From an uncultured bacterium (lineage in GTDB: Bacteria; Patescibacteriota; Minisyncoccia; Phycocordibacterales; GWA1-40-21): a stretch of DNA of 64,000 nucleotides. The position numbers were made by a program, and so were the translations under genes. The notes below the pieces were generated by a model. It worked only from the letters and a program-made list of their open reading frames with translations. It ran no database searches and was not told where the DNA came from. The stretch covers positions 584,823 through 648,822 of the forward strand of contig OY970290.1 of assembly GCA_963716205.1 (NCBI GenBank), read 5' to 3'. Positions 28,746 to 45,875 of the stretch are shown piece after piece; within the stretch, counting starts at the first letter, position 1, and each line of letters starts with the position of its first letter.

Positions 28746-28766
28746 AATAATTTAAATAAAAAAAAT

Positions 28767-29140: not shown

Positions 29141-29146
29141 TATTTT

Positions 29147-31108
29147 TTATACTTTCATTCCCGCCTGCTCGATCACCTCTTTCTTTTTCGGCACAATGCC
29201 GTTTGCAATCAAAAGCTTCTCGAATTCTTCGCGCTCAATCGTCTCGATTTCTATCAATCTTTGTGCGATAGCATCCAATGCTTTGCGGTGATCGGTGATT
29301 ATTTTCTGCGCGCGATTTTTATTGTCATTCATTATAGCTGAAACTTCCGCATCAATCTCGGCGCTGACTCTGTCAGAATATTCTTTGTCCTCGACTCCTT
29401 TGCCAAACATCGCCCGTCCGCCTTCACCTTCAAGCGCGACCGGACCGAATTTGTCGGACATTCCATATTTTGTCACCATATCCCTCGCAAGAGCCGTAGC
29501 AACCTGCAAGTCGTTTGAAGGACCCGTTGTCAGATCGCCAAAAATAGTTTTCTCCGCGACATATCCGCCGAGTGATACTGCAATGTCATCGAGAAATTCT
29601 TTTTTCGATTGCAATCTCTTGTCCTCAAACGGCAGATGAAGCGTGTATCCGCCGGCTCGTCCGCGGGCGATGATTGAAATTTTATGCACCGGATCCGCAT
29701 GAACGAGTACGGAAGACACCAGTGCATGCCCGGCTTCGTGATACGCGGTGATCTCTTTTTCTTTTTTGGAAAGAATATGACTCTTTCGCTCCGGACCCAT
29801 CATGACTTTTTCGATGGAACGAATCAGATCAAACTGGGAAACTTTCTGCCTGCCTTCCCGCGCCGCGAGAATGGCTCCTTCATTCATCAGCGAATACAAA
29901 TCCGCGCCGGAAAATCCCGGAGTCCTTTCCGCAATAACGCGCAAGTTCACGTCTTCGGCAAATGGTTTCTCTTTTGAATGGACTTTCAAAATTGCTTCGC
30001 GATCATTTCGATCCGGCAAATCAATAATGACTCTTCGGTCAAATCTTCCCGGCCTCAAGAGCGCGGTATCCAAAACATCCGGCCGGTTCGTCGCCGCCAT
30101 AACAATGACTTTTTCATTCTGCTCGAAGCCGTCCATCTCAACGAGAATCTGGTTTAGCGTCTGTTCACGTTCGTCATTGCCTCCGCCCATTCCGCCGCCG
30201 CGCACTCGTCCGACAGCATCAATCTCATCGATAAATATGATGGCTGGCGCTGCAGACTTCGCCATTTTGAACAAATCTCGCACGCGGGAGGCGCCGACTC
30301 CGACGAACATTTCCACAAATTCCGATCCGGAAATAGAAAAGAATGCGACTCCGGCTTCACCGGCAACAGCCCGCGCGAGCAAAGTCTTTCCCGTTCCCGG
30401 TGCACCCATCAAAAGAATTCCTTTCGGAATTTTTGCCCCGATATCAAGGAATTTTTTTGGATTTTTCAGGAAATCCACGACTTCCGTTAATTCTTCCTTT
30501 GCTTCTTTCGCTCCGGCAACATCAGCAAACGTCACGCGCTGTTTTTTGTCCGACGGTAAAATAATTCTCGCTTTTGATTGCCCGAAAGACATCGCCTGCA
30601 TGCCGGCACCTTTCATCTGCCGCGTGATAATCCAGATAAAAATTCCAATAATGACGAGCGGAATGACAAACGGCGCAAGATTGATAAACCAATATGAAAA
30701 ACCAGTATCGCTTTCAATCGTAATATCGACTTTATCAAGAGCAGCGGAATTCACTTTGTAATTCGCCAGAGTTTCCGTCAGTGCCACACCTTCTTCTTTT
30801 TTGGAAGTTTTCACGACCGGTGTTGAAGTCGCAGTCGTCGTCGCATACGTAATCGTCAGATCATCGCCCGAAACATTAATACTTGAAACAAGCCCGGAAT
30901 TGATATCACTCGCCACCTGCGAAATGGAAATCTGCTGGTTGGAACTTCCGCCGGAAAAAATCGCAGAATATAAAACAGATACGATAATAAGAATCAAAAT
31001 GGCATTTATTATTTTGGTGAACGAAGACATCGGTCCGCCAAATCTCGGCATTTTGCTTTTGTTTCCGTTTTGTTTTTTCGCCGGTTTTTTGTTTTTTTGA
31101 TTATCCAT
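29147..31108 (-). CDS. ftsH: ATP-dependent zinc metalloprotease FtsH
   Basis: Two TM helices, AAA+ Walker [15 protein letters not shown], and zinc motif HEAGHAL. Confidence 0.9.
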
Positions 31109-31165
31109 AGATTGCCCAATATAACACAGATTTCAGATTTTATAAATATCTGCTAGTATTAACGC

Positions 31166-31612
31166 ATGGCACCATTTGCTCAAAACAGAAAAGCACATTT
31201 CAACTATGAAATCCTTGAGAAAATCACGGCGGGCATTGAACTCGTCGGTTTTGAAGTCAAAGCGATCAAAGCCGGTCGCATCACGCTTGATGGCGCATAC
31301 GTCATTATCCGCGGCGGAGAAGCATTCCTTGTTGGCACGCAAGTTACGCCCATTCAGCCGAAAAATACTCCGAAAGATTTTGACGAGCGAAGAAATCGCA
31401 AACTTCTTTTGACCAAAAAAGAAATCCCGCGTCTCGCCGGCATGGAAAACAAACAAGGATTGACAATCATTCCACTTTCAGTGTATAATATTGGATACAA
31501 GCTCAAAGTCGAGCTTGGCATTGCCAGGGGCAAAAAGAAAAGCGACAAGCGCGAATCAATAAAATCTCGCGAGTCCGCCCGGGAAATGGACAGGACATTG
31601 AAAGGAAAATAA
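31166..31612 (+). CDS. smpB: SsrA-binding protein
   Basis: 148 aa, ...NRKAHFNYEILEKITAGIELVGFEVKAIKAG..., with a C-terminal basic tail. Confidence 0.85.
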   Translation: MAPFAQNRKAHFNYEILEKITAGIELVGFEVKAIKAGRITLDGAYVIIRGGEAFLVGTQVTPIQPKNTPKDFDERRNRKLLLTKKEIPRLAGMENKQGLTIIPLSVYNIGYKLKVELGIARGKKKSDKRESIKSRESAREMDRTLKGK

Positions 31613-31613
31613 T

Positions 31614-32017
31614 GGGGATGATCGGCCTAGACAATTGACCAATTATCCGTGCGGCAAAGTGGAGCAACCTTGTGAACTCCTAAATCTATCAAGGAAACTG
31701 TAAATGCTAAAAACATTTCTCAAAAAGTAGCGGGCGTTGCATCACCATTTATGGCGACCGTTCCTACTTTCGCTTACGCATTAGCCTAAGCGACATGTCA
31801 CCTGCTGACGTCTGATAGGTAGCGCGATGTGTAATATTTTCAGAATATATTTTATGAGTTCTCGGCGTAAAATGAAATTAGAGAATCGGATTATAAACAT
31901 TTTGTTTATTTCAAGTTTATAATCTTAAATTTGTCTTCGGACAAAAATAAATAAACTAGACTTTGTAGAAGCACTGCTAATAATCATTTGCACGGCGGTT
32001 CGATTCCGCCCATCTCC
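31614..32017 (+). ncRNA. ssrA: tmRNA (ssrA)
   Basis: Begins GGGGAUG and ends ...GGCGGUUCGAUUCCGCC-CAUCUCC-A. The 7-bp acceptor pairs 5' GGGGAUG with 3' CAUCUCC and includes the G3:U70 Ala identity pair. There is an internal ORF ...gct tac gca tta gcc TAA (...FAYALA*). It lies directly after smpB. Confidence 0.75.
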
Positions 32018-32912
32018 ACATACACGCTATTTGAGCCGCGCGATCGATAAAAGGCGACTCTATTCCTGCATATTCACTCGGTTCGAGTCGTGGACTTTCA
32101 GATCGTATACCATTCATTGTTTCGTCAATCAGCAAGAACGGTTTGAGCAATACAGCGCTTAGTTTTTTGTCCTTCAGTGTCCAGTTCGAGACAAAATACT
32201 CGACTATCTTTTTTTGGCTTATAAGGTCTCCTTTTTTAAACCACATCTTGGAATGATGGGCAAAAACAAAGATATTTTTTAGGGAGTCTTCCCAGTTTTC
32301 CTCTCGGCCTTTTGCCTTTTTCATCCACTTTAGGGCCTCGTCCCGTTCCGTTTCCAGTTTCTTTCTCCGGTCCAAATATTCCTTGTCGGTAATTAGTTCA
32401 CGAATTCTCATATCTGTAAGGACCTCTATAGATTTTTGGGCTTTGTCATGAACTCCTTCGAGGTTCCCCATCCTAACCTTAAGGGTTTCATTATCCGTTT
32501 GCCGAATACGTTCAATCCCTTGGCGCACCCAGAATACGAAGCGTTTCGGAATATGAATTCGTTCCAAGAAGTCAGCAATTTGAGCTTTTAGACTTGGAAG
32601 GGTGATCGAAGATTGAGAACACTTGTTCTTGCCCTTCTTATTTGTGCAGTGATAATAGGTGTAGGAACGAGTTTCACCAGTACCCTTGATGAGTTTTGTT
32701 TTTTCTTCCGCCGTAACCATGTAACCGCATTCCCCGCAACGAATGGTTCCCGTGAAAGCGAATTCGTGGGTCTTGGGGCGAGGCTTTCCTTCGCGCCCTA
32801 GAATTTCCTGCACCCAGTCAAATTCATCTTGCGAGACCAGGCGCTTATATTTATGGGGATATGCTTCCCCTTTTCTTTTCATAAGACCGCAATAGAATGG
32901 GTTTGTGAACAT
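31977..32912 (-). pseudogene. large serine recombinase remnant: C-terminal recombinase tail, zinc beta-ribbon and coiled coil only; no resolvase catalytic domain
   Basis: ...NPFYCGLMKRKGEAYPHKYKRLVSQDEFDWVQEIL... then IRCGECGYMVTAEEK...YTYYHCTNKKGKNKC (zinc ribbon) and a coiled coil. The ORF 3' end overlaps the tmRNA 3' end by about 40 nt (stop at 31977, tmRNA ends 32017). No in-frame catalytic domain exists upstream. Confidence 0.5.
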
Positions 32913-32926
32913 CTTATAACGATAAC

Positions 32927-33208
32927 GTGGGGAAAGAAAAGAAGAACGATTTGGTATATGAATATGATCTTCGATACATGCTATCAACCCGAGAAGGCAT
33001 GTTAGCCCGAGATTTGGCTGAAGGATTAAACGACAAAAAAAGTCTCCGTTTTTACTTCTCGATGGCCTTGGAACACTCAGAGAAATATTTGAGAGAAATC
33101 TACCGCAAGACCATGGAGACACCAGAACATAAGATTAAAAAATCTCGTGGAGCACTCTTTTCTTACCTCATAAAAAAGTATGAACACTTTGACACTATTG
33201 ACTATTGA
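32927..33208 (+). CDS. hypothetical protein
   Basis: 93 aa ORF. It occupies the position where the recombinase N-terminus would be, on the other strand. Confidence 0.25.
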   Translation: MGKEKKNDLVYEYDLRYMLSTREGMLARDLAEGLNDKKSLRFYFSMALEHSEKYLREIYRKTMETPEHKIKKSRGALFSYLIKKYEHFDTIDY

Positions 33209-33647
33209 TCCAGGTGCTAGATTCTGGGGAGTCTCTGTTTTTCACGGGAGAAACTTCAACATCTCCTTTATAAAGAAGCTTTCTACAAAAGCTTCTCCTA
33301 GAAACAGACTCTGCAAGACCAGGAGGTTATTTCTCACCCTTTGCAAGAAGTATGGTCCCGACATCCTCATCATTGAAAAACCCTATAAATTCTGGGAAAA
33401 GCAATCCCAATATCTAGGAAGGATCATTGGAGAGATAAAACGGCTTGCTAGGAAGGAGCGAATAAAAGTGATCGAGTATTCTCCTAGAACTGTCCGGAAA
33501 GTGGTCTGTAATGATAAAAATGCAACTAAAGAGGGTATAGATGATGCCGTCTGTAGGTTCTATCCAGAGTTAAAGACGTACCTAAATGAGAGCCGAAACT
33601 ACAATGACAAATATTGGGGTCGCATGAAAGTCTTGTGGAACAACTAA
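33180..33647 (+). CDS. RuvC-like Holliday-junction resolvase (phage/mobile-element type)
   Basis: 155 aa. LLTIDPGARFWGVSVF matches the RuvC motif (I)LGIDPG..G. ...ILIIEKPY... carries the catalytic Glu, and ...VIEYSPRTVRKVVCNDKNATKEGIDDAV resembles the RuvC helix region. Confidence 0.55.
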   Translation: MNTLTLLTIDPGARFWGVSVFHGRNFNISFIKKLSTKASPRNRLCKTRRLFLTLCKKYGPDILIIEKPYKFWEKQSQYLGRIIGEIKRLARKERIKVIEYSPRTVRKVVCNDKNATKEGIDDAVCRFYPELKTYLNESRNYNDKYWGRMKVLWNN

Positions 33648-33994
33648 TGATTGAACAACGACTTGGCGAAGGTCAAGGCTTGGACGGGTGTTTAAATGTT
33701 TACAACAAACTAATAGATTTAGATGATTTATCAACAGCTTTAATTTTCGATTACATCATGGCCGACGAAGTTAATCACGTGGAACGTGGAAATTATTGGA
33801 TTAGATATCTGCTTAAAGGAAATGAGGTAGCAATACAATCCTTGGAAGCGCGAACACGTATAAAATTATTGAAATTGGGTTTGGATCTTTCCGTTCCAAT
33901 TCCAGTGAACGTTCGCGGGCGTCGTCTCGCCGGGTTCACTGATGAAGAAATCAGTAAATGCCAAACAGCGGAATTTGACACCCAACAATATTGA
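33647..33994 (+). CDS. hypothetical protein, translationally coupled to the RuvC-like gene (TAATG overlap)
   Basis: 115 aa, ...IMADEVNHVERGNYWIRYLL... Confidence 0.3.
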   Translation: MIEQRLGEGQGLDGCLNVYNKLIDLDDLSTALIFDYIMADEVNHVERGNYWIRYLLKGNEVAIQSLEARTRIKLLKLGLDLSVPIPVNVRGRRLAGFTDEEISKCQTAEFDTQQY

Positions 33995-34064
33995 CAAAAG
34001 ATCGAATTTAACAATAATACTTTTATTACTAATTATTTTAAAATAAACAGAAGGGGTAAAAAAA

Positions 34065-34238
34065 TGAAAGCTAAATCTTCCGCGGTGAAAAAAAAAGTTA
34101 ATCCTTCCAACTTAAAGTTCTTAACTCATGTTTCTAAATTGACGAAAGCATTACAGTCAAACAATCGTGAAGCAGAAAAAATAATTAAGCAATTAAAAGC
34201 CCTTCGTCCCTTCCCCATGCCAAGCACCTGGTAGTCAA
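34065..34238 (+). CDS. small hypothetical protein with strong RBS
   Basis: 57 aa (MKAKSSAVKKKVNPSNLKFLTHVSKLTKALQSNNREAEKIIKQLKALRPFPMPSTW), preceded by AAGGGG 7 nt upstream. It is below the ORF-track length cutoff. Confidence 0.25.
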
Positions 34239-34297
34239 GGACTGTTTGCCCCAGGACTTCGACAATAGGCCTTCCCAAAATTTTAGGTGGTGAACAA

Positions 34298-35026
34298 TTA
34301 TTCTTTTTCAAGAATAGCAACGTAGGAAGAACCTGCAGAAGTTAAAATATTTTTTATTTTCCAACCGGTTCCTTTCACAATATTTTTCATTTCGTTTTTT
34401 GAAACTAATAGGTAATTAAACCAATCACCGATATAGTTTTCGAATCGGACTCGTATTCGAAGTTGGCCTGCCATTCGTCCCCTCCTTTTGTTCAATTTAA
34501 GATATGACAAATGTGCGGAATTACTTGTTTTATATGGGTCATTGCTTTCAGCAATAATAAAAGCTTCTGGTTTAGTGATTTTATAAATGGCTTTTAATAA
34601 GGATTTAGCTTTTTTAAAACTCCCAAACAAACCAAAGTTGTTGCCGTACATGACAATCGTATCAAATGAATTTCTTTGGAGAGTATGAATCTTTTCAATT
34701 GGAAGAACCTGCGTTTTTGTTATGCCCCTTGCTTTGCATACTTTAATTGCGAGAGGTGAGTTATCTATCGCTGTGACATCGAGACCTTTTCTTTGAAGAT
34801 ATAGCGCAACTCTTCCCGCGCCGGTGCCCACATCAAGAATTCTTCCCTTGGCAAATACTATTGCTTTCTTCTGTTGAGTTGGCCAGTTTTTAAAATCTTG
34901 AAAATACGCTGGAGAACCCGTTGATAATCCAACATAACCATCATCTCGTTCGATGAGTTCGTAAGACTTTTTTCTTTTGAAATAAGCCCATATTTCTTGC
35001 CCATATGCATCTTTATCAAAATTCAT
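34298..35026 (-). CDS. class I SAM-dependent methyltransferase
   Basis: Motif I ILDVGTGAGRVALYL, plus acidic post-I and motif II. Confidence 0.7.
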   Translation of the reverse strand: MNFDKDAYGQEIWAYFKRKKSYELIERDDGYVGLSTGSPAYFQDFKNWPTQQKKAIVFAKGRILDVGTGAGRVALYLQRKGLDVTAIDNSPLAIKVCKARGITKTQVLPIEKIHTLQRNSFDTIVMYGNNFGLFGSFKKAKSLLKAIYKITKPEAFIIAESNDPYKTSNSAHLSYLKLNKRRGRMAGQLRIRVRFENYIGDWFNYLLVSKNEMKNIVKGTGWKIKNILTSAGSSYVAILEKE

Positions 35027-35376
35027 TATAAAAAAATATTATGAGGTCTGGTGTACTTGTTATTAAGCACCGCTCTCGTTAGCCGAATTGTACCTTTGTA
35101 ATGCCAGAATTGCAAATTCCTAACTGGTCACATTTAGTGCAATAATTATTATAAAAAAAACATCGGCATTCATTAAAATTGGGCAAAACAAGGTCCGTTC
35201 CAAAGTTATATATTTTTAAGTATTGTTCTTTCCATAATTTTTTTGTTTGAAACGAAACTAAATATTATGATGAAGTTCATTATGTAAAATAAAAAAGGAG
35301 GGCAATCTTATGGCAACTCTCAAAAAAGAAGTCATCGTTGGCTGTTATTGAAAATCCATCTTGAAAGGTGTCCGCC

Positions 35377-35862
35377 GTGAGAATCAAATATCTTGTTTTG
35401 GTTATTATTCTGTCAGTTTCAAACGCATTTGCTCAAGACGGTAATTCACAGGACGTTATTTATTTAAAAAATGGTCGCGTGGTAAAAGGAACGATTGTTG
35501 AAAAATCGCCCGGAGGGAAACTTACAATTCGGACTTGGAGTGGATACAAGTTCACTTATAAAAAATCGGAGATTAGTAAGATTGAAAAAGAAGAAACAGG
35601 GAAGGATGAAGAGCAGGCAGATCAAAACGAGTCAAAGCCAACCACTAAAAATCGGGGCCATGTAATCGATAATTTATACGGCGATTCAAAGTATTTTATC
35701 CAGGTTTCCCGGCACATTCAGAAATTCAGTTACTTGACTCCACCACCACCTACTCCCGTACCGCCGGTGTCACCGATTTGTTTCGATTTGGAGATAACAA
35801 TTCCCTTGGAGTTAAACTTTATTGTCGCGGATTGGGTATCTACTCCTGACCCGATGCCATAA
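35377..35862 (+). CDS. hypothetical secreted protein with Pro-rich tail
   Basis: Signal peptide MRIKYLVLVIILSVSNAFA. The C-terminal 40 aa overlap the convergent lipoprotein gene. Confidence 0.35.
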   Translation: MRIKYLVLVIILSVSNAFAQDGNSQDVIYLKNGRVVKGTIVEKSPGGKLTIRTWSGYKFTYKKSEISKIEKEETGKDEEQADQNESKPTTKNRGHVIDNLYGDSKYFIQVSRHIQKFSYLTPPPPTPVPPVSPICFDLEITIPLELNFIVADWVSTPDPMP

Positions 35863-36098
35863 ATTCCACTAGAAACCTTCGTAAATGAATAAATGAAACT
35901 CGATGTTCCATCTTCATTTTCCAATTCTTGATTGGGTGAACCGAGTAGCTCCACTACATCTTCCTTAGTACTTACACCTTTTTTGATTTGTGAATACGCA
36001 CTTTGGTCGATCTGATGGCCCAAAGTAGTTACGCACCCCGTTATAAGACTGCTTGCAAAAGAAAAAATTAGCGAACACAGAATAAATCTCCGTAACAT
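35730..36098 (-). CDS. lipoprotein, SmpA/OmlA (BamE)-like domain with Gly-rich tail
   Basis: MLRRFILCSLIFSFASSLITGC lipobox, then ...SKEDVVELLGSPN... Confidence 0.4.
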   Translation of the reverse strand: MLRRFILCSLIFSFASSLITGCVTTLGHQIDQSAYSQIKKGVSTKEDVVELLGSPNQELENEDGTSSFIYSFTKVSSGIYGIGSGVDTQSATIKFNSKGIVISKSKQIGDTGGTGVGGGGVK

Positions 36099-36258
36099 TA
36101 TTCGTCTCCTTTTCGAAGTTATATAAACCAAAGTTCTCAATTAAGAACCTTCAAGGACAAAAAGGGGCCTAAATATGTTCTTTTTTGAGAACCTTAATAT
36201 AGCAATAAAGTTCTTAGTTGAGAACGTTTATTTTCGTATTGATTTTAATAATGGGGGC

Positions 36259-36465
36259 ATGTCAATACATGCGAAACGAGTCTCGAAAAACCTGAGGAAA
36301 ATGATTGTTGATAGTGGTATGAGCGCAGAAAAAATTGCTCAAGGGGCAGGCATTTCTAAATCACAGATTTCCTACTACTTGAATAGCACTCGAACACCTA
36401 CCATTCAAACCTTAGAGAAAATATCGGATTTCCTGAAGCGGGATTTTCAGGATTTTTTCAGATAA
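36259..36465 (+). CDS. XRE-family helix-turn-helix transcriptional regulator
   Basis: MSAEKIAQGAGISKSQISYYLNSTRTPTIQTLEKISDFL, an HTH_3 pattern. It is convergent with the restriction-modification operon. Confidence 0.5.
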   Translation: MSIHAKRVSKNLRKMIVDSGMSAEKIAQGAGISKSQISYYLNSTRTPTIQTLEKISDFLKRDFQDFFR

Positions 36466-36472
36466 TAGAAGT

Positions 36473-37429
36473 TCAGTGTTTCGAATATGGCCCTAAGAAT
36501 CGGGTTCCATTGAAGTGAATCATGTGGGAAGGATTTTCCGCAACCCATACTTCGGTTTCCCACGCAATCACGGAGAGGTATTTCGTCATTATTGATTTCG
36601 TCGGGAACGCAGTCACAAACACGAGTCCTGCCGTGCAGCCTGAAAACATTTTCTTGAGTTCTTCATGCCGCTTGGCATCCATCGGTCCATGACTTGTTAC
36701 CGACTCCACGAGGACCAGCCAGTTTTTATCAGGATAATAAATTACAACATCAGGCATTTTCCCGTGGGAATCAACAGTAACACCGAGCTTCGCCAATGAC
36801 TTTTCATCAAAAGATGCCCACTTCTTACCAGTATCACCCACATAGACAACTTGAGCGCCGGGGACGAAACGAGAACCAAACTCTTCCACGATAGCCTTGA
36901 TAAGCTGGCTATGTTCCCCAGGACTTAGTTTGATCTCATTACCAGGAGTAATCTTTAAGGCTACTTGTTTCAAATCACGTTCTGCCGCATATTTTTTCGC
37001 CAACTCTGTTTTTATCAAAAGGTATTCTTTAACCTTTTTACTCCACCGCGAAGTGCCGTAACTTTTTACTAACTCAAACGCTTCCGGGGAAATCTGATAT
37101 ACCGCTTTGGGGCTATTTACCGAACGTTCAGGTTCATCGGGGTTATACATAGCAAGTCCAGCTTGGACAAATTGATGGATAGTAAAACGACGAAATGTCT
37201 CTCTGCTGTTGGGAGCATATTTTTTTCCATATGCCTTCAAACTAAAGTCCATCATGGGCGTAATGCCCATGAGTGGCGTAGATGCGTCCTTCCACTCCGT
37301 AGTTTTCTTTAGATTGAGCAAAGCCAAAAGGCAAAGTGCCGACCGCTCATTTATCTGTTCTTTCGGCATTCCAACTTCAGTGAGGATCTTTAACGCATCT
37401 TCGATATGTTCGTGTTGTTTTTTGTTCAT
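36473..37429 (-). CDS. type II restriction endonuclease (PstI/BsuBI-family-like, inferred)
   Basis: 318 aa. Its start overlaps the stop of the upstream DNA methyltransferase by 4 nt (ATGA). The size and N-terminal wHTH-like region fit the BsuBI/PstI family. The assignment rests mainly on context. Confidence 0.45.
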   Translation of the reverse strand: MNKKQHEHIEDALKILTEVGMPKEQINERSALCLLALLNLKKTTEWKDASTPLMGITPMMDFSLKAYGKKYAPNSRETFRRFTIHQFVQAGLAMYNPDEPERSVNSPKAVYQISPEAFELVKSYGTSRWSKKVKEYLLIKTELAKKYAAERDLKQVALKITPGNEIKLSPGEHSQLIKAIVEEFGSRFVPGAQVVYVGDTGKKWASFDEKSLAKLGVTVDSHGKMPDVVIYYPDKNWLVLVESVTSHGPMDAKRHEELKKMFSGCTAGLVFVTAFPTKSIMTKYLSVIAWETEVWVAENPSHMIHFNGTRFLGPYSKH

Positions 37430-38904
37430 TGGATTGATTTTACCATTTTATCAACATCTCCCTGATTAGCAGTTCTATTCGATTTTGCCATTTTGCCGAG
37501 AACTCTGAGCGCTTCAATCGGTGGATATTTCAAAGAGCGAAGATCGGTCGCATTTACTTGCGTATGTCCGTTGAATTCCCTGAAATATTTGTCAACACCA
37601 GATGAGTTCAAATACATCGTTAGACCCCGCGCTACATTTTCTTCAAGGCCTGTTTTCTTAATGTGAAAAACATTTAGATGGTTTTCAAAACCAAGTCTTT
37701 TGGCTTTAATTTCTTTGGGCGAAAGAAGAGCTGCGCTTATACGCTTTTTCTCCTCTTTGGAAGAAAACCTTTTTACCAAAACATAAAACCCTTTTGGAAA
37801 AAGCATTTTTTTCGTTTCATCGTCTAGTGAGATGGCATTAGATTTTCGGATCTCTTTTTTGGGCCATTTCACTGAGTTACCATCAAAGTGCGCTGGATAC
37901 AATAGTGGAGCATCACCTTTTAAAGGCATTTTGTGAAGATTGTCTTTTATACGAAAATCAACCACCGGCCCCGTCGATACTTCTATACCAATTTCTTTGA
38001 GACTACATTTGTCAGTATTCGAGTTTTCCAATGAATTCTTTTTGATTTCAGTAGGAATATGGATGAACGATTCCTCATCCAACGGATTAAGGATTTGTCC
38101 AATATCACATTTGAATTGTTTCAAGTCTGAAAATGAAGAGTCGGAAGATATTGAAATTAAAACTTCTTTTGAAATCCGTCCTTTAACCAAATGGAAAATA
38201 ACGTTTTCTTGAAGAACTCCGTCATCCTTGAATGCCCGTTTCCTTGAATCAAATAAATGAATAGTTTTAATCGCCGTTTTCTTAAGTAAAGATTTTCGAA
38301 ACGATCTGTAGTAAGGGCCGTTGCAAAAACTTCGAGGAATGATAACTACTAATTCGCCACCTTTCGCCATTTTATTTACTGCCACTTCTACGAAGGCAGA
38401 ATAAAGATTCACTGTCTCTATTCCCATTGTTCGAAGCATTTCTCTATGTTCAGAATCACTGTGAATTTTCTTGTAAGGAGGGTTTAGGATCGCATGAGTA
38501 TAGTTTGGTGATTCTGATTTCCATGAATTTCTTACCGCATCAACAATGAAATCATCGTTGTAAATTCGATATTCAAAACGACCATTGGATTTGTTCTTTT
38601 GAAAACTGTTAAAATTATTTTTGAGATACGCCGCTAAGTCGTTGTCTATTTCAAATGCATCAACATATATTTTGGGCTTTAGTCTCTTAAGAGAACTCCA
38701 TCTTTCAAGAAAAGCGAATGTTAAGGAACCGATACCTGCACCCGCATCAAGTAATTTGATTTCCCTATTGGTAAACTTGGAAAAAAGTGACGCCATGAAT
38801 GCGCCCACAGGAGCAGGTGTCATAAACTGACCAAGTGCCGACTTTACCACCGGGTCAAGTGCCTTAGAAACCTCTTGCCTTTTTTGGTCAACTATTTGGA
38901 GCAT
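37426..38904 (-). CDS. N6-adenine DNA methyltransferase, gamma class (M.PstI/BsuBI/Eco57I-like)
   Basis: Motif I LDAGAGIGSLT precedes motif IV NPPY (AILNPPYKKI), and a large C-terminal target recognition domain follows. Confidence 0.75.
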   Translation of the reverse strand: MLQIVDQKRQEVSKALDPVVKSALGQFMTPAPVGAFMASLFSKFTNREIKLLDAGAGIGSLTFAFLERWSSLKRLKPKIYVDAFEIDNDLAAYLKNNFNSFQKNKSNGRFEYRIYNDDFIVDAVRNSWKSESPNYTHAILNPPYKKIHSDSEHREMLRTMGIETVNLYSAFVEVAVNKMAKGGELVVIIPRSFCNGPYYRSFRKSLLKKTAIKTIHLFDSRKRAFKDDGVLQENVIFHLVKGRISKEVLISISSDSSFSDLKQFKCDIGQILNPLDEESFIHIPTEIKKNSLENSNTDKCSLKEIGIEVSTGPVVDFRIKDNLHKMPLKGDAPLLYPAHFDGNSVKWPKKEIRKSNAISLDDETKKMLFPKGFYVLVKRFSSKEEKKRISAALLSPKEIKAKRLGFENHLNVFHIKKTGLEENVARGLTMYLNSSGVDKYFREFNGHTQVNATDLRSLKYPPIEALRVLGKMAKSNRTANQGDVDKMVKSIQ

Positions 38905-39114
38905 TTGTTCTCATTTTTCTTAATTCTAATAATCATTACTTTATGCAGTTACCACAAGCGCAGATTAAGTATACATCTGTTTACCAAAATTCAAAATCTC
39001 ATTTCCAGAAGACTGACTCGATAATCCGACTTCAAAAACTCTTTGAATTCTTTCATCTCTCCTAGCCCTTTATTTTAGGTAATATACAATATAAGTTATG
39101 GCAGACTATCGAAT

Positions 39115-40627
39115 ATGACGATTCCAAATTACATCACGCCAATCACGAAGATCCACTCTACTTTCAAAGAAGCCAAAGGTTTTTTTGATACGTATGGGGG
39201 TATATCGATCTTTGATGACGAGCCGAGACTCGATGTTGTAGCTCTCACGCAAGGAAAGCGCAATCTCGTGGTAGGCGAGCCCGGTGTCGGTAAAAGCCTG
39301 TTGCTTCAGGTCGTCAAAGAACATCTTGATCAAGAGAAATATGCCACTGCCATCATTAGCCTTCGTGATCCAGATGCAATTAAACAAATAGACGAATTTT
39401 TGAATTCTCCTTTCCAAACCCAAAAAACCTTACTACTTGATGCACTCGATGAAGTTAAGGCGAACTTATTTCCATCGCTACTCCAAAAAATCGAAGACAT
39501 TTCTGCTAAATATCCGGACATTTCGATTTTTCTCTCCTGTAGGTGGGTATTCATCAGTCGATATACAAATTCATTTCCCGCATTTCGCTTCATCACAATT
39601 TCTCCTTTTACCCGCAGACAAGTAAAAATGTATCTCATTGGGTCTCCAATTTTTTGGTGATCCAACAGTCATTGACGAATTGCCCGATCTCACTAATTCG
39701 GAAGAACTGATACTCACAAGCCAATATAAGCGGTGGGAAGAAGAACAATCCAAAACTGCATCAAATAACACGGAAGAAACTGCTGAAGAGCTTTTGAAAG
39801 AATTTCGTACTTTACTTGAACCCGAACCGGGAAAATTTAAAACTAATGTGTTTCAATTCTACAATAGACATTCGAATGAAATTACTTCACGACTTACAGA
39901 TAATGATCGCGAGCGAATTATAAATCTTCTTTCAAATACAGTTTTTAAATTCATGGACCCAGGCCAATACGGTATCACAATCACTTCAGAAAAAAACGGT
40001 TCACACACTTTCACCGTAGCTGACACGATACATATTTTTGGTGATGCAATCGTGACCGCGGAACACATCGGAATGAACATAACTCCCTTTCGACAACAAA
40101 TTCTCAATTTCATACCGTTTACATTTGGAGATAATCTGACCACCATCTTTAATTTGGTGAAAAACATTCGGCCCGAAGAAATGACACCCATTATTGAAGT
40201 TTATCGAAAACGTCATTCAGATTTGTGGCGGCATAACCCCCATAGTTTTGTTAAAGCTGTGGAGCAGTATCACATCTCAGAAGCCATACCTGTTTTGAAA
40301 ACCTTGATATTTGAATCAAAATGGGAAATGCAAGTTAGAAATGCCGCCTTACCAGTGATCGATTCCCTTGCACCAGATATAGATTTTCTTAGACAAGTCG
40401 TCGCAAGGTACAAAGATAGTACAGATAACGAAGAGAAAAAATTAGCAGACATCGCGAATGGTTTGCTCATTACTAACTATGCTGATGCTGACGCAGTGCA
40501 TTGGCGTTTAAAAAAAATCGTTGAGCGAGCAGCCGCCTTCATTAAGCCGAGAGGACCGCACGCGCATATGGTAGGCGGCTTGGAGGAAGAAATTTCATTT
40601 GGAAAGACATTTGCAAAACCGTTATAG
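39115..40627 (+). pseudogene. STAND/NACHT-like P-loop NTPase, split by a +1 frameshift in a T6 run (39650-39655) into a 181-aa NTPase part and a 329-aa C-terminal part
   Basis: Walker A VVGEPGVGKSLLL, Walker B LLLDALDEV, and a sensor-like SCR. ORF1 ends ...IGSPIFW*. ORF2 continues in the +1 frame from a TTG. Deleting one T fuses them into a protein of about 510 aa. Confidence 0.45.
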
Positions 40628-40815
40628 ATAATGCTGGAGCTAAAAACATGATCGGCATCAAAGAAGCTTTCCAAAACATAAAAGGTGTATGGGTTTTGTC
40701 GTTTAACTGCCACGATAGTGTGACAGCCCAAAAGAAGAAAAAGGTCCTAAAAACAAAAAAACGAGCTGACCATACCGGTCAGCGTAGAAAGAAGTAGCAT
40801 ATTCGAGTGTAGATA

Positions 40816-41325
40816 CTATCTTTCGTCCACTACTCGAAATTTTCTAGGTATATCAGATGGTCGTGCATATCGTTCGGAACGTGGACCATTTACGGTTTCA
40901 TCTAACGCCTTTGCGCCAGGTCTCGTTCCCCGTCTTTCAAGAGCGTTAATCTTTTTCGCTTGTTCCCTAATCCTGACGAACGAAAGATTTATCTCGATGT
41001 GCGTGCCTTTGTCATTCCTGCATGAATAGGAATCATAGATAAATTTCTTGTCAAAATACGGATATAAAATACGATAAATCACATGATGCAGAAGTCTGTC
41101 TCGCACGACCGCCTTGTGTATGCTTCTCGGTTTCGGATCGTTGATAGCAAATGCTTTATAGCCGGAATGAACGTATGTTTTGTTTTTCAAATCATCATGC
41201 AGACTTGCAATATTTTTTGAGAGTTGAAGCGCATATTCTGCCACATCATTTTTATATCGTTTGTCAGAAACAAATTCCCGCCATGCTTGGTGAATATTTG
41301 TCAGAGATATGATAGTATCGTACAT
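40816..41325 (-). pseudogene. DGR-type reverse transcriptase, N-terminal fragment (motifs 1-2 only; no YxDD)
   Basis: MYDTIISLTNIHQAWREFVSDKRYKNDVAEYALQLSKNIASLHDDLKNKTYVHSGYKAFAINDPKPRSIHKAVVRDRLLHHVIYRILYPYFDKKFIYDSYSCRNDKGTH follows the DGR/retron RT pattern (...FRDRVVHHAL...SYACRKGKGTH). After this point the ORF diverges and stops, and a terminator hairpin lies at 40758-40782. Confidence 0.6.
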
Positions 41326-41360
41326 GTTGGAAAAAATACTATACCACAAAAATACCATGA

Positions 41361-41732
41361 ATGTTGCCCCCCCCCCGCAAATCGCCAGTTGTCGTTGCAA
41401 AAGAAAAAGAAGCGTATCAATTTTGGCTTAGTCTCCACAGAAATTTTCCCAAGTCTGAACGCTTTGGTATCGGACAGAAAATAGAAAATACGTTTTTAGA
41501 CATTTTAGAATATAGCTTTGCATCAGTGTATCTGTCGCCGGAACCGAAAATTATCTTGCTCACAAAGACAATATCAAAACTAGATACCTTGAAATTCTTT
41601 GTTCAGCTTGCTTGGGAAAGTAAACTGATACCGGAAGAAAAATACATTGAATTTTCTGAAAAATTAGAGGAAATTGGAAAAATGCTCGGCGGATGGAAAC
41701 GCGGATTGCAACAAAAAACTCCCGCCAAATAG
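41361..41732 (+). CDS. avd: Avd-like four-helix-bundle protein (DGR accessory variability determinant)
   Basis: ...FPKSERFGIGQKIENTFLDILEYSFASVY... and ...KLDTLKFFVQLAWESKLIPEEKYIEFSEKLEEIGKMLGGW match the four-helix-bundle (23S rRNA IVS protein / bAvd) family. It sits between the TR and the RT gene on the opposite strand. A C10 run lies at 41367-41376, right after the start codon. Confidence 0.55.
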   Translation: MLPPPRKSPVVVAKEKEAYQFWLSLHRNFPKSERFGIGQKIENTFLDILEYSFASVYLSPEPKIILLTKTISKLDTLKFFVQLAWESKLIPEEKYIEFSEKLEEIGKMLGGWKRGLQQKTPAK

Positions 41733-41750
41733 ACGGGAGAAAATGAATGA

Positions 41751-41866
41751 GTTTCGGAACCACGATCCGATGCCTGTTCTCGGCATTCCAGACGTTGTCG
41801 TTCGACAAACGATTGACGTTCACGTTGAGCCCATCGGAGTTCACGTTCACGTTCGCCACGAAATTT
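41751..41866 (-). repeat. DGR template repeat (TR), 116 nt
   Basis: Near-identical to 42204-42319. On the minus (sense) strand it encodes NFVANVNVNSDGLNVNVNRLSNDNVWNAENRHRIVVPKL with 10 AAY Asn codons. Confidence 0.7.
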
Positions 41867-42199
41867 TGTGCAATGTTCCTCCTATTCCACCATCCGCCAA
41901 ACCATGACAGATTGTATCTTATGCGGGACCTCAAAGTCCTCTGAAATATTGCACCAACTTTATTTATTTTTATAAGATATCCGTATCATCCACTCTTTTA
42001 CAAGACGTATCCGGTAAAATTCTCAAACGATACAGACATGCAATTGCAGTCTCAAGCCGTAGCCGGAGACATCTAGAATTGCTTTTTCATTATATATGAA
42101 AAATAAAAAATTAAAATAAAAAACCCCTCGATCCTGCTTGCGCAAAATCGAAGGGTCAAAGTGTCCAAGTCCCAAAGGGACAAGAACGAAGTGTTGAAG

Positions 42200-42922
42200 T
42201 TACAGTTGCGGAACCACGACCCGAGGCCTGTACCCGGCATCCCAGACGTAGTCGTAAGACAAACGAAAGACGTGCACGTAGAGCCCATCGGAGTACACGT
42301 CCACGTCCGCCACGAAATAATCCTTCCCAACTTTGAAGAGGAAGAAAGTTCCGTAACCATCGGTACGAAGCCACTTGGCGTGCTTCTTGCAGAACTGCTT
42401 GATCTGGGCCTGAGTCAGACACAGACGATCGAGGTTTTCTCCAAAACTTCCGAAGATCGCCTTGAAGTCGCCGTCCTGCGTCATCTCAAACACGTGGGTT
42501 TTCACCCGCTTGGTCGCTTCAGCCGGAACATCAAGACCCCAGTTTTTGAAGTCGGAGTCGATATAATCGGGGAAAACGTCCTTGGCGTTCGCGATAGTTT
42601 CCGTGCCGTCTGTCGGATCAAGAACGGTGTCCTTGCCGAGAGAAATGCACGTGAGATGGCTGGTTTTGAGCTCGATGGATTCGGCAAAGAATTTTTCCAT
42701 CGCATCCTCGATCGCCGAATTGAGCTTGCCATCCGCTTGAATCCGCTGAACAGCCGATCTGTCGAGGGCTTTCGAAAACTTGCTAACCGCCCTCTTTACC
42801 CCTCTTCGTCCGGCTTTCTCGCCCCGACTCACGAGATCCTTCATCTGCTCGGATGTAATCAATGACTTAGCCATTGTTATCATCCTCCTTTTCTGAATTT
42901 TACTTCGCGTGGTTTTCACCAC
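42200..42922 (-). CDS. DGR target protein; VR at extreme C-terminus (CLec/FGE-like tail ...GYRPRVVVPQL)
   Basis: 240 aa. The last 38 aa (YFVADVDVYSDGLYVHVFRLSYDYVWDAGYRPRVVVPQL*) are encoded by the VR. Confidence 0.55.
   Translation of the reverse strand: MVKTTRSKIQKRRMITMAKSLITSEQMKDLVSRGEKAGRRGVKRAVSKFSKALDRSAVQRIQADGKLNSAIEDAMEKFFAESIELKTSHLTCISLGKDTVLDPTDGTETIANAKDVFPDYIDSDFKNWGLDVPAEATKRVKTHVFEMTQDGDFKAIFGSFGENLDRLCLTQAQIKQFCKKHAKWLRTDGYGTFFLFKVGKDYFVADVDVYSDGLYVHVFRLSYDYVWDAGYRPRVVVPQL
42204..42319 (-). repeat. DGR variable repeat (VR), 116 nt
   Basis: 17 mismatches against the TR. 16 of them lie at positions where the TR sense strand has A. Confidence 0.7.
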
Positions 42923-43271
42923 AGCTTTGAATTGACCTGTTGGATCAGCTCAAAGCTGTAGTGAAATACAACTGTTTTTAAGGTTCTTATCTACTTACAA
43001 TTGTACACCTTTTTAATATATCTGTCAAGAATAGCTATACTCCCTTAGAAATAAGCTAGATTTGGCTATGATACTACATATTTTTTCAGATCCGGAATAT
43101 AAATATACCTATTCTCTTCCTGAAAAATCGTACGGACTGCCATCACGGTGTCCCACATTAAAAAATAAACTCATATTCATAAATATGAGTTTATTTTTTT
43201 AAAATCTTGACACCAATATAATATATGTGTTAGTATTCTAACAAGTTGCTCTTACAAAAAAGGAGAACCGC

Positions 43272-43505
43272 ATGTCTATTCACACAGGTCAGCTCATCAA
43301 GACAACTGAAACACTTGGGGATTTGAAAAATGCCCATGTTGCAGAAAAACATATTCGAGCTCGCACACCGAATTGTTTTGGAACCGTATTTTCTGAACGG
43401 CCAAAGGAAAGGCTTGTCTATGTTAAACATGTAAACAAGCCTGATCTCGCCGTGTATGAACGCGGTGAATTATCTTCAGCCGAACAATTTTTGCAGGTTT
43501 CTTAA
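43272..43505 (+). CDS. hypothetical protein
   Basis: 77 aa. A TTGACA-17-TGnTAGTAT promoter-like element lies at about 43206-43240 and a terminator follows. Confidence 0.3.
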   Translation: MSIHTGQLIKTTETLGDLKNAHVAEKHIRARTPNCFGTVFSERPKERLVYVKHVNKPDLAVYERGELSSAEQFLQVS

Positions 43506-43556: not shown

Positions 43557-43674
43557 TATATTTTTCATTACGTAAGGGAAAAATAAGAATATCCACAGCT
43601 ATTGACAATATTAATATAATGATATAAAATATAAATAAAGCTGTTCTTCGTAAATTTAAAAAACGAGGTGGAGT

Positions 43675-44388
43675 GTGAAAAACATTTTCATGCTGTTCCT
43701 GCTGACGTTTAGCGTTTTGTCCACCGGCTGCATTTATAGAGTGGTCTATGGACCAAGAGTCTATGACATTTATGGACAAGACACTCCTGCTGCCGCGAGA
43801 ATTCGTTTTTATCAGCAACATCCAGAATTTAAGGATGATGTGATAGATGATGGAATAACGGGCATTGTGCCGGGACCAAATGGCTGGATAATTAGTCATC
43901 ATAAAAAAGATGCTAGTCCTGCCGTTCCCCGTCCTCAAAGCTTAAAGCCTGCAGTTAAAGCTAGAGAATGGGTAAATGTTCCTGATGGATATTTTCAGCC
44001 GCCGCTCGATGGTCCAATTGAAATCAATTGGAAAAAAGGACTTCATGGCAAGGGAAACACCGGCTATGATTTGTTCGCCAAAAAAGGATCGCGTGTCAAA
44101 TCGTCGGCTGCCGGCAAAGTAATTGTTGCATCAACGGGATGGAATGATGGATCGGGATATTTGATCCGGATTTTACATCCGAATGGAACCATTACGGCTT
44201 ATTGCCACCTTTCCCAAATTGATGTTTGGAAAGGACAAGAAGTTTTCCAAGGACAAACCATAGGACTCTCTGGAAACAGCGGAAACGTAAGCAGTGATTG
44301 CGGTGGAGATGGATCTCACCTGCATTTTGCGGTTTACTATACGGAAAATCCAGCTCCAAAATGGGAGTCGCGTTACGCTTCTCGTTAA
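43675..44388 (+). CDS. M23-family peptidase lipoprotein
   Basis: Lipobox LSTGC, LytM motifs ...HxxxD... and SHLHFAV. Confidence 0.7.
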   Translation: MKNIFMLFLLTFSVLSTGCIYRVVYGPRVYDIYGQDTPAAARIRFYQQHPEFKDDVIDDGITGIVPGPNGWIISHHKKDASPAVPRPQSLKPAVKAREWVNVPDGYFQPPLDGPIEINWKKGLHGKGNTGYDLFAKKGSRVKSSAAGKVIVASTGWNDGSGYLIRILHPNGTITAYCHLSQIDVWKGQEVFQGQTIGLSGNSGNVSSDCGGDGSHLHFAVYYTENPAPKWESRYASR

Positions 44389-44400
44389 TTGTGTTTAGGA

Positions 44401-44440
44401 AAAAGGGATCGTGATTCGTCACGGTCCCTCTTTTTATTTT
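44401..44440. terminator. bidirectional terminator
   Basis: gggatcgtgattcgtcacggtccc flanked by A- and T-runs, between convergent genes. Confidence 0.55.
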
Positions 44441-45060: not shown

Positions 45061-45106
45061 AAATTTTTATATTGTATTAATTAGTAATATAAAAAGTATA
45101 TCAAAT

Positions 45107-45772: not shown

Positions 45773-45875
45773 CATCGTTGCCAGAAAAAATAAAATATGC
45801 TATAAATAGCTTCTAACGCAGTCTATTGGGGGTTGTGAAAAATGCACGCTTTCAATACGTTATTTTTAAAAAACT

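What the first reader, a model, noticed from the sequence alone, without database searches (positions are those of the whole stretch)
31977..43200. About 11-kb accessory island integrated at the tmRNA 3' end, with a degenerate serine recombinase
Immediately 3' of ssrA lies the C-terminal half of a large serine recombinase (zinc ribbon plus coiled coil). Its stop codon lies inside the tmRNA 3' end (last about 13 codons overlap the tmRNA T-arm/acceptor), a classic signature of integration into tmRNA. The catalytic resolvase domain is missing, so the island is probably fixed. Cargo runs through a RuvC-like resolvase, SAM methyltransferase, secreted and lipoproteins, the restriction-modification pair, the STAND NTPase and the DGR. 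Recognisable core genes (peroxiredoxin, PAP2, infC) resume after about 44400. I could not find a direct repeat of the tmRNA 3' end (attR) by eye.
Basis: partly seen in the sequence, partly recalled or inferred. Interest (0 to 1): 0.6.

Follow-up and report, generated by a model that had tools for sequence, protein, structure and literature searches.

The report
Decayed serine-recombinase island at tmRNA end
An 11.1-kb piece of foreign DNA sits exactly at the last bases of the tmRNA gene of a Patescibacteria (CPR) bacterium; it was put there by a large serine recombinase that has since lost its catalytic half, and whose attachment site lies inside its own gene and copies the tRNA T-loop.

Summary
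An 11,137-bp island (32022-43158) follows ssrA.

- **Boundaries.** The missing attR is a 6-bp core, CCACAT, at 32016-32021 and 43153-43158. Serine recombinases leave no long repeat.
- **Evidence at attR.** Beside attR lie the recombinase's displaced last 28 codons (minus strand, 43152-43069) and the displaced ssrA terminator (43160-43199).
- **Relatives.** L204 is collinear on both flanks and lacks every island gene.
- **Decay.** One deletion of roughly 1.4 kb removed recombinase residues 1-220 and the neighbouring regulators, so the island cannot move itself. The reverse transcriptase, NTPase and DUF455 genes are also fragments.

Wider finding:
- The recombinase belongs to a large family. In 40 of 80 genomic relatives the stop codon overlaps a tRNA or tmRNA gene on the opposite strand.
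- attP lies inside the recombinase gene's 3' end.
- The conserved "VRT" tail is really a DNA motif, GTT[A/C]GAAC, resembling the T-loop.
- In all six loci with both junctions, this motif lies exactly 5 bp farther from the crossover core than the tRNA's own T-loop. That matches the known attP/attB spacing rule for the zinc-ribbon domain.

Closest precedent: the Dehalococcoides ssrA islands (DsiB, 2011). I rate it a new variant of a known kind.

The parts
31460..31489 (+). Likely ssrA promoter (TTGACA-18-TATAAT, 12/12)
   Evidence: Consensus scan only; function inferred.
31614..32021 (+). tmRNA gene (ssrA), complete; forms the host (B) arm of attL
   Evidence: ARAGORN; Rfam, 103 bits, full model.
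32016..32021 (.). attL core CCACAT: last two acceptor bases, discriminator A, then CAT
   Evidence: The only sequence shared by the two junctions.
31977..32936 (-). Large serine recombinase remnant: residues ~221 to the core, plus 12 tmRNA-antisense codons; catalytic domain deleted
   Evidence: Pfam; tblastn to P0002-P0029; 68% identical to P0002.
32937..32940 (.). Deletion junction between the two divergent gene remnants
   Evidence: Recombinase homology ends at 32936. Homology to the 106-aa protein starts at orf93 residue 5, about 32939.
32927..33208 (+). orf93: conserved 106-aa partner protein, lacking about 14 N-terminal residues
   Evidence: 66% identical to L257 2057-2377. Also found in L003, L002, L024, L063, L018 and L048.
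33180..33647 (+). RuvC-like resolvase, conserved partner gene
   Evidence: Pfam RuvC; PHROG 159; 59% identical to L257; also in L003, L002 and L024.
33614..33994 (+). DUF455 C-terminal fragment
   Evidence: Matches profile positions 141-246 of 247 only.
34298..35026 (-). SAM-dependent methyltransferase (cargo)
   Evidence: Pfam Methyltransf_11/25.
35368..35862 (+). Putative secreted protein, no family match
   Evidence: ORF with signal-like N-terminus; no Pfam or PHROG hit.
35730..36140 (-). BamE-like lipoprotein
   Evidence: Pfam BamE, 2.1e-7.
36175..36465 (+). XRE-type HTH protein, possibly the controller of the restriction-modification pair
   Evidence: Pfam HTH_3; controller role inferred from position.
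36473..37429 (-). BsuBI/PstI-type restriction endonuclease, full length
   Evidence: Pfam, both domains, 1.9e-65 and 2.6e-52.
37426..38904 (-). N6-adenine DNA methyltransferase partner
   Evidence: Pfam Eco57I and N6_Mtase.
39115..40627 (+). P-loop/STAND-like NTPase, split into two ORFs and much shorter than its 1134-aa homologue
   Evidence: Pfam; L080 homologue.
40816..41400 (-). DGR reverse transcriptase remnant: homology to a DGR-type RT (L057) covers residues 21-134
   Evidence: tblastn to L057; no further RT frame downstream.
41361..41732 (+). bAvd accessory protein of the DGR
   Evidence: Pfam bAvd, 2.4e-15.
41750..41864 (-). DGR template repeat
   Evidence: Repeat pair; 15 of 16 mismatches fall at TR adenines.
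42200..42922 (-). DGR target gene with the variable repeat at 42204-42318
43066..43152 (-). Displaced last 28 codons and stop of the recombinase (DTVMAVRTIFQEENRYIYIPDLKKYVVS*)
   Evidence: tblastn to tails of P0012, P0019, P0020, P0021, P0015 and P0087, best E 5.6e-5. Joining it to the remnant restores the family C-terminus.
43130..43137 (-). Degenerate T-loop-like box GTCCGTAC (family consensus GTT[A/C]GAAC), 5 bp farther from the core than the tmRNA T-loop box
43153..43158 (.). attR core CCACAT
43160..43199 (+). Displaced ssrA terminator: 18-bp hairpin with a T run
   Evidence: -16.5 kcal/mol, z = -6.65. Empty sites in L206 and L138 have a terminator at this position.
43272..43505 (+). First host gene after the island (77 aa), with a promoter-like site at 43207-43236
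   Evidence: L204 has a 78-aa gene 73 nt after its tmRNA (33% identity, E 2e-4).

Best explanation
An integrative element of about 11 kb entered the chromosome of a Patescibacteria bacterium by site-specific recombination, catalysed by its own large serine recombinase (LSR). The bacterial site (attB) is the extreme 3' end of ssrA. The crossover lies within CCACAT (acceptor end and discriminator), so the tmRNA sequence is unchanged but is cut off from its terminator, which now sits 11 kb away.

The element's site (attP) lies inside the 3' end of the LSR gene. Integration therefore split off the last 28 codons, now at attR, and replaced them with 12 codons read antisense through the tmRNA.

I infer that the enzyme's zinc-ribbon domain reads the T-loop box of the t(m)RNA gene. 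attP carries a palindromic copy of that box (GTTCGAAC, which is what encodes 'VRT'), placed 5 bp farther from the crossover, as LSR attP arms are relative to attB arms.

Later a deletion of roughly 1.4 kb removed LSR residues 1-220, a small upstream ORF, an XRE-type repressor and the start of the 106-aa partner gene. The island can no longer excise on its own. Other cargo also decayed (RT, NTPase, DUF455), while the restriction-modification pair looks intact.

Shown: boundaries, displaced tail and terminator, absence in relatives, truncation, and the family-wide tRNA overlap and 5-bp rule. Inferred: the exact crossover dinucleotide, recognition of the T-loop box by the zinc-ribbon domain, and any function of the tail swap.
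For: - **Junctions.** A shared 6-bp core is the only identity between them.
- **Displaced tail.** It sits in frame, on the right strand, exactly at the synteny break. The rejoined ORF restores the family C-terminus.
- **Displaced terminator.** z = -6.65. Real empty sites in L206 and L138 show tmRNA-CCAC(AT)-terminator.
- **Relatives.** L204 is collinear on both flanks with no island genes.
- **Composition.** There is a dip over 31-41 kb.
- **Truncation.**, against the intact modules in L257, L256 and L003.
- **Family pattern.** 40 of 80 genome loci have a tRNA or tmRNA on the opposite strand overlapping the LSR stop by 10-67 nt.
- **Further cases.** Five more loci have a displaced tail, a 7-10-bp core and (L076, L042) a terminator hairpin beside it.
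- **The box.** It is present in 33 of 34 tails, and the Arg codon is only AGA or CGA. The shift is exactly +5 bp in 6 of 6 loci, matching PMC3783163.
- **Fold.** The family folds as an LSR; best PDB hits are the SPbeta, Bxb1, PhiC31 and A118 integrases.
Against: - No recombination was observed, and no excised circle or same-species empty site was found. The exact attB 37-mer is absent from JGI metagenomes.
- The window's tail scores poorly against the tail HMM (5.4 bits), and its box has 2 mismatches.
- The opposite arms of attP and attB show no clear box.
- 14 of 80 relatives have intact tails in large chromosomal contigs with no tRNA nearby, so attP-in-gene may not hold for the whole family, or those copies sit in arrays.
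- The six loci showing the 5-bp rule are related, so they are not fully independent.
- Whether all 11 kb arrived in one event cannot be told.
Confidence: 0.85

Rival explanations
1. Composite island: the recombinase element integrated at ssrA, but part of the cargo (the restriction-modification pair, the NTPase, the DGR) arrived or was rearranged by later events inside the same boundaries.
For: Several genes are fragments with abrupt ends: the RT abuts the NTPase on the other strand, and DUF455 overlaps RuvC. GC ranges from 0.345 to 0.48 within the island. Relatives carry quite different cargo.
Against: There is only one T-loop-like box and no second tail or attP-like site inside 32022-43158. 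The tetranucleotide signature is uniformly atypical across the island.
Confidence: 0.25
2. The conserved tail reflects only a DNA constraint, because it is the attP half-site. Swapping the C-terminus on integration has no consequence for the protein, and the gene/attP overlap is mere compaction.
For: Third codon positions of V, R and T are conserved, and the Arg codon is restricted to AGA or CGA. Integrated copies with tRNA-antisense tails are the majority state. Solved LSRs have no counterpart beyond profile position ~460 of 550.
Against: Residues outside the box are conserved with free third positions (V at -3, E/D at -2, D at -1, F/Y at +3/+4). AlphaFold predicts a confident helix at 519-539 (pLDDT 82-88) after a disordered linker. 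A further motif, YIYIPDL, lies beyond any plausible half-site.
Confidence: 0.45
3. A conventional tDNA island made by a tyrosine integrase (now lost), with the serine recombinase as incidental cargo and the ORF/tmRNA overlap a coincidence.
For: tmRNA genes are classic targets of tyrosine integrases (PMC4383910, PMC7192596).
Against: There is no tyrosine integrase in the island and no direct repeat of the tmRNA 3' end. The displaced recombinase tail lies exactly at attR. The same overlap occurs in 40 of 80 relatives.
Confidence: 0.03
4. Not an island: a lineage-specific but vertically inherited region.
For: No same-species empty site was found. The one other sample with this strain (ERR11563597, L001 and L202) also carries both island ends.
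Against: Flank collinearity without the island in L204, empty sites in L206 and L138, and a different element at the same site in L203. Atypical composition.
Confidence: 0.02

Closest known systems
Dehalococcoides ssrA-specific genomic islands with the serine recombinase DsiB (McMurdie et al. 2011, PMC3146451)
   Same: A ~540-aa large serine recombinase on the reverse strand directly beside ssrA. Its 3' end always runs across attL into ssrA. Islands are about 10-12 kb and carry accessory cargo. The authors already suggested the gene may be complete only on the circular form.
   Different: [quoted passage not shown] DsiB comes with a small second serine recombinase (DsiA), RecF, ParB and Mom-like genes; here the partners are a small upstream ORF (about 60 aa), an XRE HTH, a 106-aa protein and a RuvC-like protein. 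That paper described the C-terminal parts as divergent and reported neither a displaced conserved tail nor the T-loop-like box. Sequence relatedness to DsiB was not tested.
Canonical phage large serine integrases (A118/LI, SPbeta SprA, Bxb1, PhiC31)
   Same: Same domain order and fold. Short crossover core, and a zinc-ribbon-domain motif 5 bp closer to the centre in attB than in attP (PMC3783163), which is what the t(m)RNA and tail arms show here.
   Different: In those systems, as far as I recall, attP lies outside the integrase gene and the targets are protein-coding genes. This family targets t(m)RNA 3' ends, has an extra C-terminal segment of about 90 residues, and is rare in viral contigs (about 8 close members in 2.9 million).
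Tyrosine-integrase tDNA islands (Islander/TIGER type)
   Same: Integrase gene next to a tRNA or tmRNA gene, target gene left functional, island variably present among relatives.
   Different: A different enzyme family, and no displaced tDNA fragment as a direct repeat. S-Int use of t(m)RNA genes was 14/297 and 'not reported previously' in PMC7192596. 27 of 937 tycheposons and related cryptic elements carry an LSR.
Gene-internal attP systems: integration-dependent immunity of mycobacteriophage BPs (PMC4557955); SSV1-type split integrase genes (from my own knowledge)
   Same: attP lies inside a coding sequence, so integration changes the C-terminus of the product.
   Different: In BPs the split gene is the repressor and the enzyme is a tyrosine integrase. 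A functional effect of the swap is shown there but is only hypothesised here.

Membership tests
Large serine recombinase (serine integrase) | N-terminal resolvase catalytic domain with the serine nucleophile | tested here: not met
   Absent from the window copy: homology starts at residue ~221, and there is no fragment elsewhere in the 64 kb. Present in all full-length homologues (PF00239). The window gene is therefore a remnant of a member, not a working member.
Large serine recombinase (serine integrase) | Recombinase domain, zinc-ribbon domain and inserted coiled coil | tested here: met
   Zn_ribbon_recom at 3.6e-10 and a partial Recombinase domain. The model of the 68%-identical P0002 has long helices at 351-455 and matches the SPbeta, Bxb1, PhiC31 and A118 integrases.
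Large serine recombinase (serine integrase) | Short crossover core, and a zinc-ribbon-domain motif shifted 5 bp between attP and attB arms | tested here: met
   6-bp core in the window and 7-10 bp in five other loci. The T-loop-like box is shifted +5 bp in 6 of 6. The rule is taken from PMC3783163. Only one arm of each site shows a box.
t(m)RNA-integrated genomic island (Islander definition) | Integrase gene adjacent to the tDNA, and island absent from relatives | tested here: met
t(m)RNA-integrated genomic island (Islander definition) | Displaced 3' fragment of the tDNA as a direct repeat at the far end; tyrosine integrase | tested here: not met
   No copy of the 22-mer at up to 3 mismatches, only a 6-bp core. 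The enzyme is of the serine type.
Dehalococcoides-type ssrA island (DsiB) | LSR on the reverse strand whose 3' end overlaps attL/ssrA | tested here: met
   compared with PMC3146451.
Dehalococcoides-type ssrA island (DsiB) | 20-bp ssrA direct repeat, T-loop insertion point, DsiA/RecF/ParB/Mom module | tested here: not met
   6-bp core at the acceptor end. The module here is small ORF/HTH_3/106-aa/RuvC-like.
Dehalococcoides-type ssrA island (DsiB) | Sequence orthology of the recombinase to DsiB | not tested
Diversity-generating retroelement (cargo) | TR/VR pair differing at TR adenines; Avd; reverse transcriptase | tested here: inconclusive
   TR/VR and adenine bias met (15 of 16) and bAvd met. 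The RT ORF is 194 aa, with homology to a DGR-type RT over residues 21-134 and no Pfam RT hit. Past activity is clear; present function is doubtful.
Type II restriction-modification, BsuBI/PstI type (cargo) | Endonuclease with both BsuBI_PstI domains plus an adjacent N6-adenine methylase | tested here: met
   Pfam 1.9e-65 and 2.6e-52; Eco57I and N6_Mtase. Activity not testable.

The most novel reading that the evidence does not exclude
This recombinase family is a general tRNA-docking system. Its zinc-ribbon domain reads the universal T-loop box, so lineages can hop between tRNA species (Asn, His, Trp, Ser, Gln, Asp, Lys, Ile, Tyr, Gly, Ala, Leu, tmRNA) by changing only the short acceptor-end core. 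Because attP sits inside the gene, the enzyme's C-terminal helix is present only on the excised circle and is swapped for tRNA-antisense codons on integration. This would act as a built-in sensor of integration state that tunes activity, stability or directionality. Arrays of orphan tails after some intact genes (L030 and others) would then be stacks of recombinase-less cassettes captured at the same site.
Probability: 0.3. Interest if true: 0.8.

Novelty: new variant of a known kind. Interest (0 to 1): 0.6.

Why it matters
- **A rarely reported target.** Serine integrases are reported to avoid tRNA and tmRNA genes. A 2020 survey counted 14 of 297 and asked for proof. Here one family gave at least 594 confirmed hits in species-representative genomes, mostly Patescibacteria, and half of the 80 inspected loci dock on a tRNA or tmRNA 3' end.
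- **A testable mechanism.** The T-loop-like box with the exact 5-bp attP/attB offset predicts how the target is recognised. It also suggests how to find or design serine integrases aimed at near-universal, conserved sites.
- **Mobile elements of CPR bacteria.** These are poorly known. This gives a simple way to map such islands without direct repeats: find the orphan tail and the displaced terminator.
- **This genome.** The island is a decaying relic that still carries an apparently intact restriction-modification pair.

Tried and rejected
- **Direct repeat of the tmRNA end.** Searching for a copy of the tmRNA 3' end found none, as expected for a serine recombinase.
- **Exact attB in metagenomes.** The reconstructed 37-mer gave no hit in JGI metagenomes.
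- **tmRNA 22-mer in metagenomes.** It returned 120 loci, almost all unrelated taxa sharing only the T-arm and acceptor; only L138 was a true relative.
- **Exact-protein look-ups.** P0001, the M23 ORF and P0121 were not on record. SmpB and the 77-aa protein found only the same strain in one other sample.
- **M23 peptidase homologues.** Too distant (40% at best) for a synteny test. FtsH worked instead.
- **Viral contigs.** The family is rare there, so a phage origin is not supported.
- **Tail HMM.** It scored the window's own tail weakly (5.4 bits); tblastn with individual tails was needed.
- **Terminator scan.** It missed the displaced AT-rich hairpin because it requires 3 G-C pairs; folding showed it.
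- **A box in the other arms.** None was clear in the opposite arms of attP or attB.
- **An earlier misreading.** I first took orf93 for the tail of a 250-aa HTH_36 protein (L003). Closer relatives show a free-standing 106-aa protein, so only about 14 residues are missing.

Full report

Yes. ARAGORN and Rfam both call a complete tmRNA at 31614-32019/32021 on the + strand. It lies directly after smpB (31166-31612) and ftsH. A 12/12 sigma-70-like promoter sits at 31460-31489.

The minus-strand ORF 31977-33122 matches the recombinase zinc ribbon (3.6e-10) and the last part of the Recombinase domain. More than 1000 homologues were found, and the best are 525-570-aa proteins with Resolvase, Recombinase and Zn_ribbon domains. 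Homology begins at their residue ~221 (window 32936). The first 220 residues, which include the catalytic domain, occur nowhere in the window.

The last 14 codons (..MWRWAESNRRANDY*) are the antisense of the tmRNA acceptor and T-arm.

**2. Where is attR?**

A 22-nt copy of the tmRNA end does not exist. The clue came from the homologues' C-termini:
- Many end in peptides that are antisense translations of tRNA T-arms (..GLDSNQRPSGY.., ..RDSNPR.., ..WRWAESNRRA..).
- Others end in a conserved motif, W..V(E/D)DVRT(F/Y)F...
- P0012 and P0013 are identical up to 'IPRWL' and then diverge into one type or the other.

This suggested that the crossover lies inside the gene, so the displaced tail should sit at the island's far end on the minus strand. 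tblastn with the tails found exactly that at 43164-43084: FLMWDTVMAVRTIFQEENRYIYIPDL. The best single-query E-value was 5.6e-5, with six different tails hitting.

The two junctions share only CCACAT, at 32016-32021 and 43153-43158. Joining the remnant to the tail gives ...AAQIACMW|DTVMAVRTIFQEENRYIYIPDLKKYVVS*, which is the family C-terminus.

Immediately to the right of attR is an 18-bp hairpin with a T run (43160-43199; -16.5 kcal/mol, z = -6.65). This is the tmRNA terminator, now 11 kb from its gene. A promoter-like site and a 77-aa host gene follow. The island is therefore 32022-43158, or 11,137 bp.

**3. Comparative test**

FtsH homologues place the host in Patescibacteria/Paceibacterota.

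| Locus | Relatedness | State of the ssrA site |
|---|---|---|
| L204 (GCA_028865965.1) | FtsH 89% | Collinear with window 25925-31626 and 43660-49998 (M23 46%, peroxiredoxin 76%, PAP2 56%, IF3 80%, L20 76%). Its tmRNA is followed 73 nt later by a 78-aa gene weakly similar to the 77-aa gene. |
| L206 | tmRNA 79% | Empty: tmRNA-CCACAT-terminator. |
| L138 | tmRNA 80% | Empty: tmRNA-CCAC-terminator. |
| L203 | tmRNA 88% | Occupied by an intact recombinase only 23% identical to this family. It also reads into the tmRNA, in another frame, and carries different cargo. |

No ORF of window 32000-43200 matches any of these four loci. The site is therefore a hot spot. The tetranucleotide correlation to the rest of the window drops to 0.84-0.87 over 31-41 kb, the window minimum, and GC is 0.400 against 0.425.

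**4. State of the island**

In the closest relatives with DNA (L257, L256, L003) the recombinase is preceded by a small ORF (60-70 aa). Divergent from it lie an XRE HTH gene, then a 106-aa protein (fused to an HTH_36 domain in L003), then a RuvC-like protein.

The window keeps the RuvC-like gene (59% identical to L257) and the 106-aa gene minus about 14 residues (66%), abutting recombinase residue 221. One deletion of roughly 1.4 kb therefore destroyed the catalytic domain and the regulatory genes.

Other cargo:
- DUF455 is a C-terminal fragment.
- The NTPase is split and is far shorter than a 1134-aa homologue.
- The DGR has a clear TR/VR pair with 15 of 16 mismatches at TR adenines. Its RT ORF is 194 aa, with homology to a DGR-type RT over residues 21-134 and no further RT frame downstream.
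- The BsuBI/PstI-type endonuclease and its methylase look complete.
- There is no second attP-like site inside the island.

**5. The family and the mechanism**

A scan of one genome per species gave at least 594 confirmed relatives, and 80 loci were inspected.
- In 40 of the 80, a tRNA (Asn 13, His 11, Trp 3, others) or tmRNA on the opposite strand overlaps the stop codon by 10-67 nt.
- 14 have an intact tail with no tRNA nearby.
- Five loci also contain the displaced tail upstream on the same strand, with a 7-10-bp core shared with the tRNA acceptor end, giving islands of 7.5-10.7 kb.

Codon-position analysis of 34 tails shows that 'VRT' is conserved as DNA. The motif [AG]T[TCA][AC]GAAC[CT] occurs in 33 of 34, and the Arg codon is only AGA or CGA. 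This is a palindromic box resembling the T-loop (GTTCGAAC).

In all six loci where both junctions are known, this box lies exactly 5 bp farther from the core than the T-loop box of the tRNA or tmRNA arm. For the A118-type integrase, the zinc-ribbon-domain motif occupies positions 16-24 in attP and 11-19 in attB (PMC3783163). With that numbering, the predicted centre falls inside or at the edge of the observed core in all six loci; this is my own calculation.

I therefore infer that the zinc-ribbon domain reads the T-loop box, and that attP copies it at attP spacing. The window's own box (GTCCGTAC) is the one degenerate copy. The opposite arms show no clear box, which is a weakness of the model.

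**6. Does the tail swap matter?**

This is unresolved.

For a protein-level role:
- Residues outside the box are conserved with free third positions.
- A further motif, YIYIPDL, lies beyond any plausible half-site.
- AlphaFold predicts a confident helix at 519-539 after a disordered linker.
- Solved integrases have no counterpart beyond profile position ~460.

Against: the strongest conservation is at the DNA level.

A second inferred consequence is that ssrA transcription now lacks its terminator and should run antisense into the recombinase gene. Only weak terminator-like sites follow.

**7. What is known**

McMurdie et al. 2011 described Dehalococcoides ssrA islands whose 540-aa serine recombinase, DsiB, always overlaps attL. 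They speculated that it is complete only on the circle. Those islands have a 20-bp repeat and insert in the T-loop.

Mageeney et al. 2020 found serine-integrase use of t(m)RNA genes in 14 of 297 islands and called it previously unreported. 27 of 937 tycheposons and related cryptic elements carry such an enzyme. I found nothing on Patescibacteria.

The island itself is thus a new example of a known kind. The extreme-3'-end crossover, the displaced conserved tail and the T-loop-like box with the 5-bp offset are, as far as I could find, new.

**Verdict**

Observation confirmed and interpretation supported with corrections. I rate it a new variant of a known kind, interest 0.6.

Noticed in passing
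L030 3698-3808, 6802-6963, 8637-8855; also L078 13556, L005 5933, L063 12599/13011, L072 14851, L056 13232: Some relatives with an intact recombinase gene are followed, on the same strand, by one to three orphan copies of the tail segment at 1-3-kb intervals, with no recombinase body attached. They look like stacked recombinase-less cassettes or tandem elements.
   Followed up: partly
L138 (about 65 nt after the tmRNA end, tmRNA-sense orientation); also L112, L125, L130, L131, L173, L176, L179, L182, L199: In many metagenome contigs sharing this tmRNA 3' end, the ssrA terminator is followed by an inverted copy of the acceptor end (GTGGAGATGG..), sometimes with GGAATCGAAC after a hairpin. No explanation; ARAGORN calls no tRNA there.
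   Followed up: partly
L203 7535-9118: A close relative of the host (tmRNA 88% identical) has the same ssrA end occupied by an intact recombinase of a different lineage (23% identity). It also reads into the tmRNA, in another frame, and carries DNA methylases and an S24 peptidase. The site is a hot spot for unrelated serine recombinases.
   Followed up: partly
window 40816-42922: The DGR has its avd gene on the strand opposite the RT, TR and target; L057 shows the same RT/avd layout. TR/VR show adenine-specific differences, but the RT ORF is only 194 aa, with homology to a DGR-type RT (L057) over residues 21-134, and it abuts the NTPase fragment, so the DGR is probably dead.
   Followed up: partly
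window 28460-28534 and L138 6105-6178: A tRNA-Ile with anticodon TAT (UAU) lies upstream of ftsH in both the window and its relative. This is an uncommon way to read AUA.
   Followed up: no
L256 1730-3694: The 16-kb contig carrying the 56%-identical intact recombinase (P0003) also encodes a TraG/VirD4-like coupling protein and a TIR-domain protein, hinting that some members are mobilisable or conjugative elements.
   Followed up: no
window 35368-35862 and 35730-36140: The putative secreted protein and the BamE-like lipoprotein ORFs converge and overlap by about 130 nt, so one of the two is probably shorter than listed.
   Followed up: no
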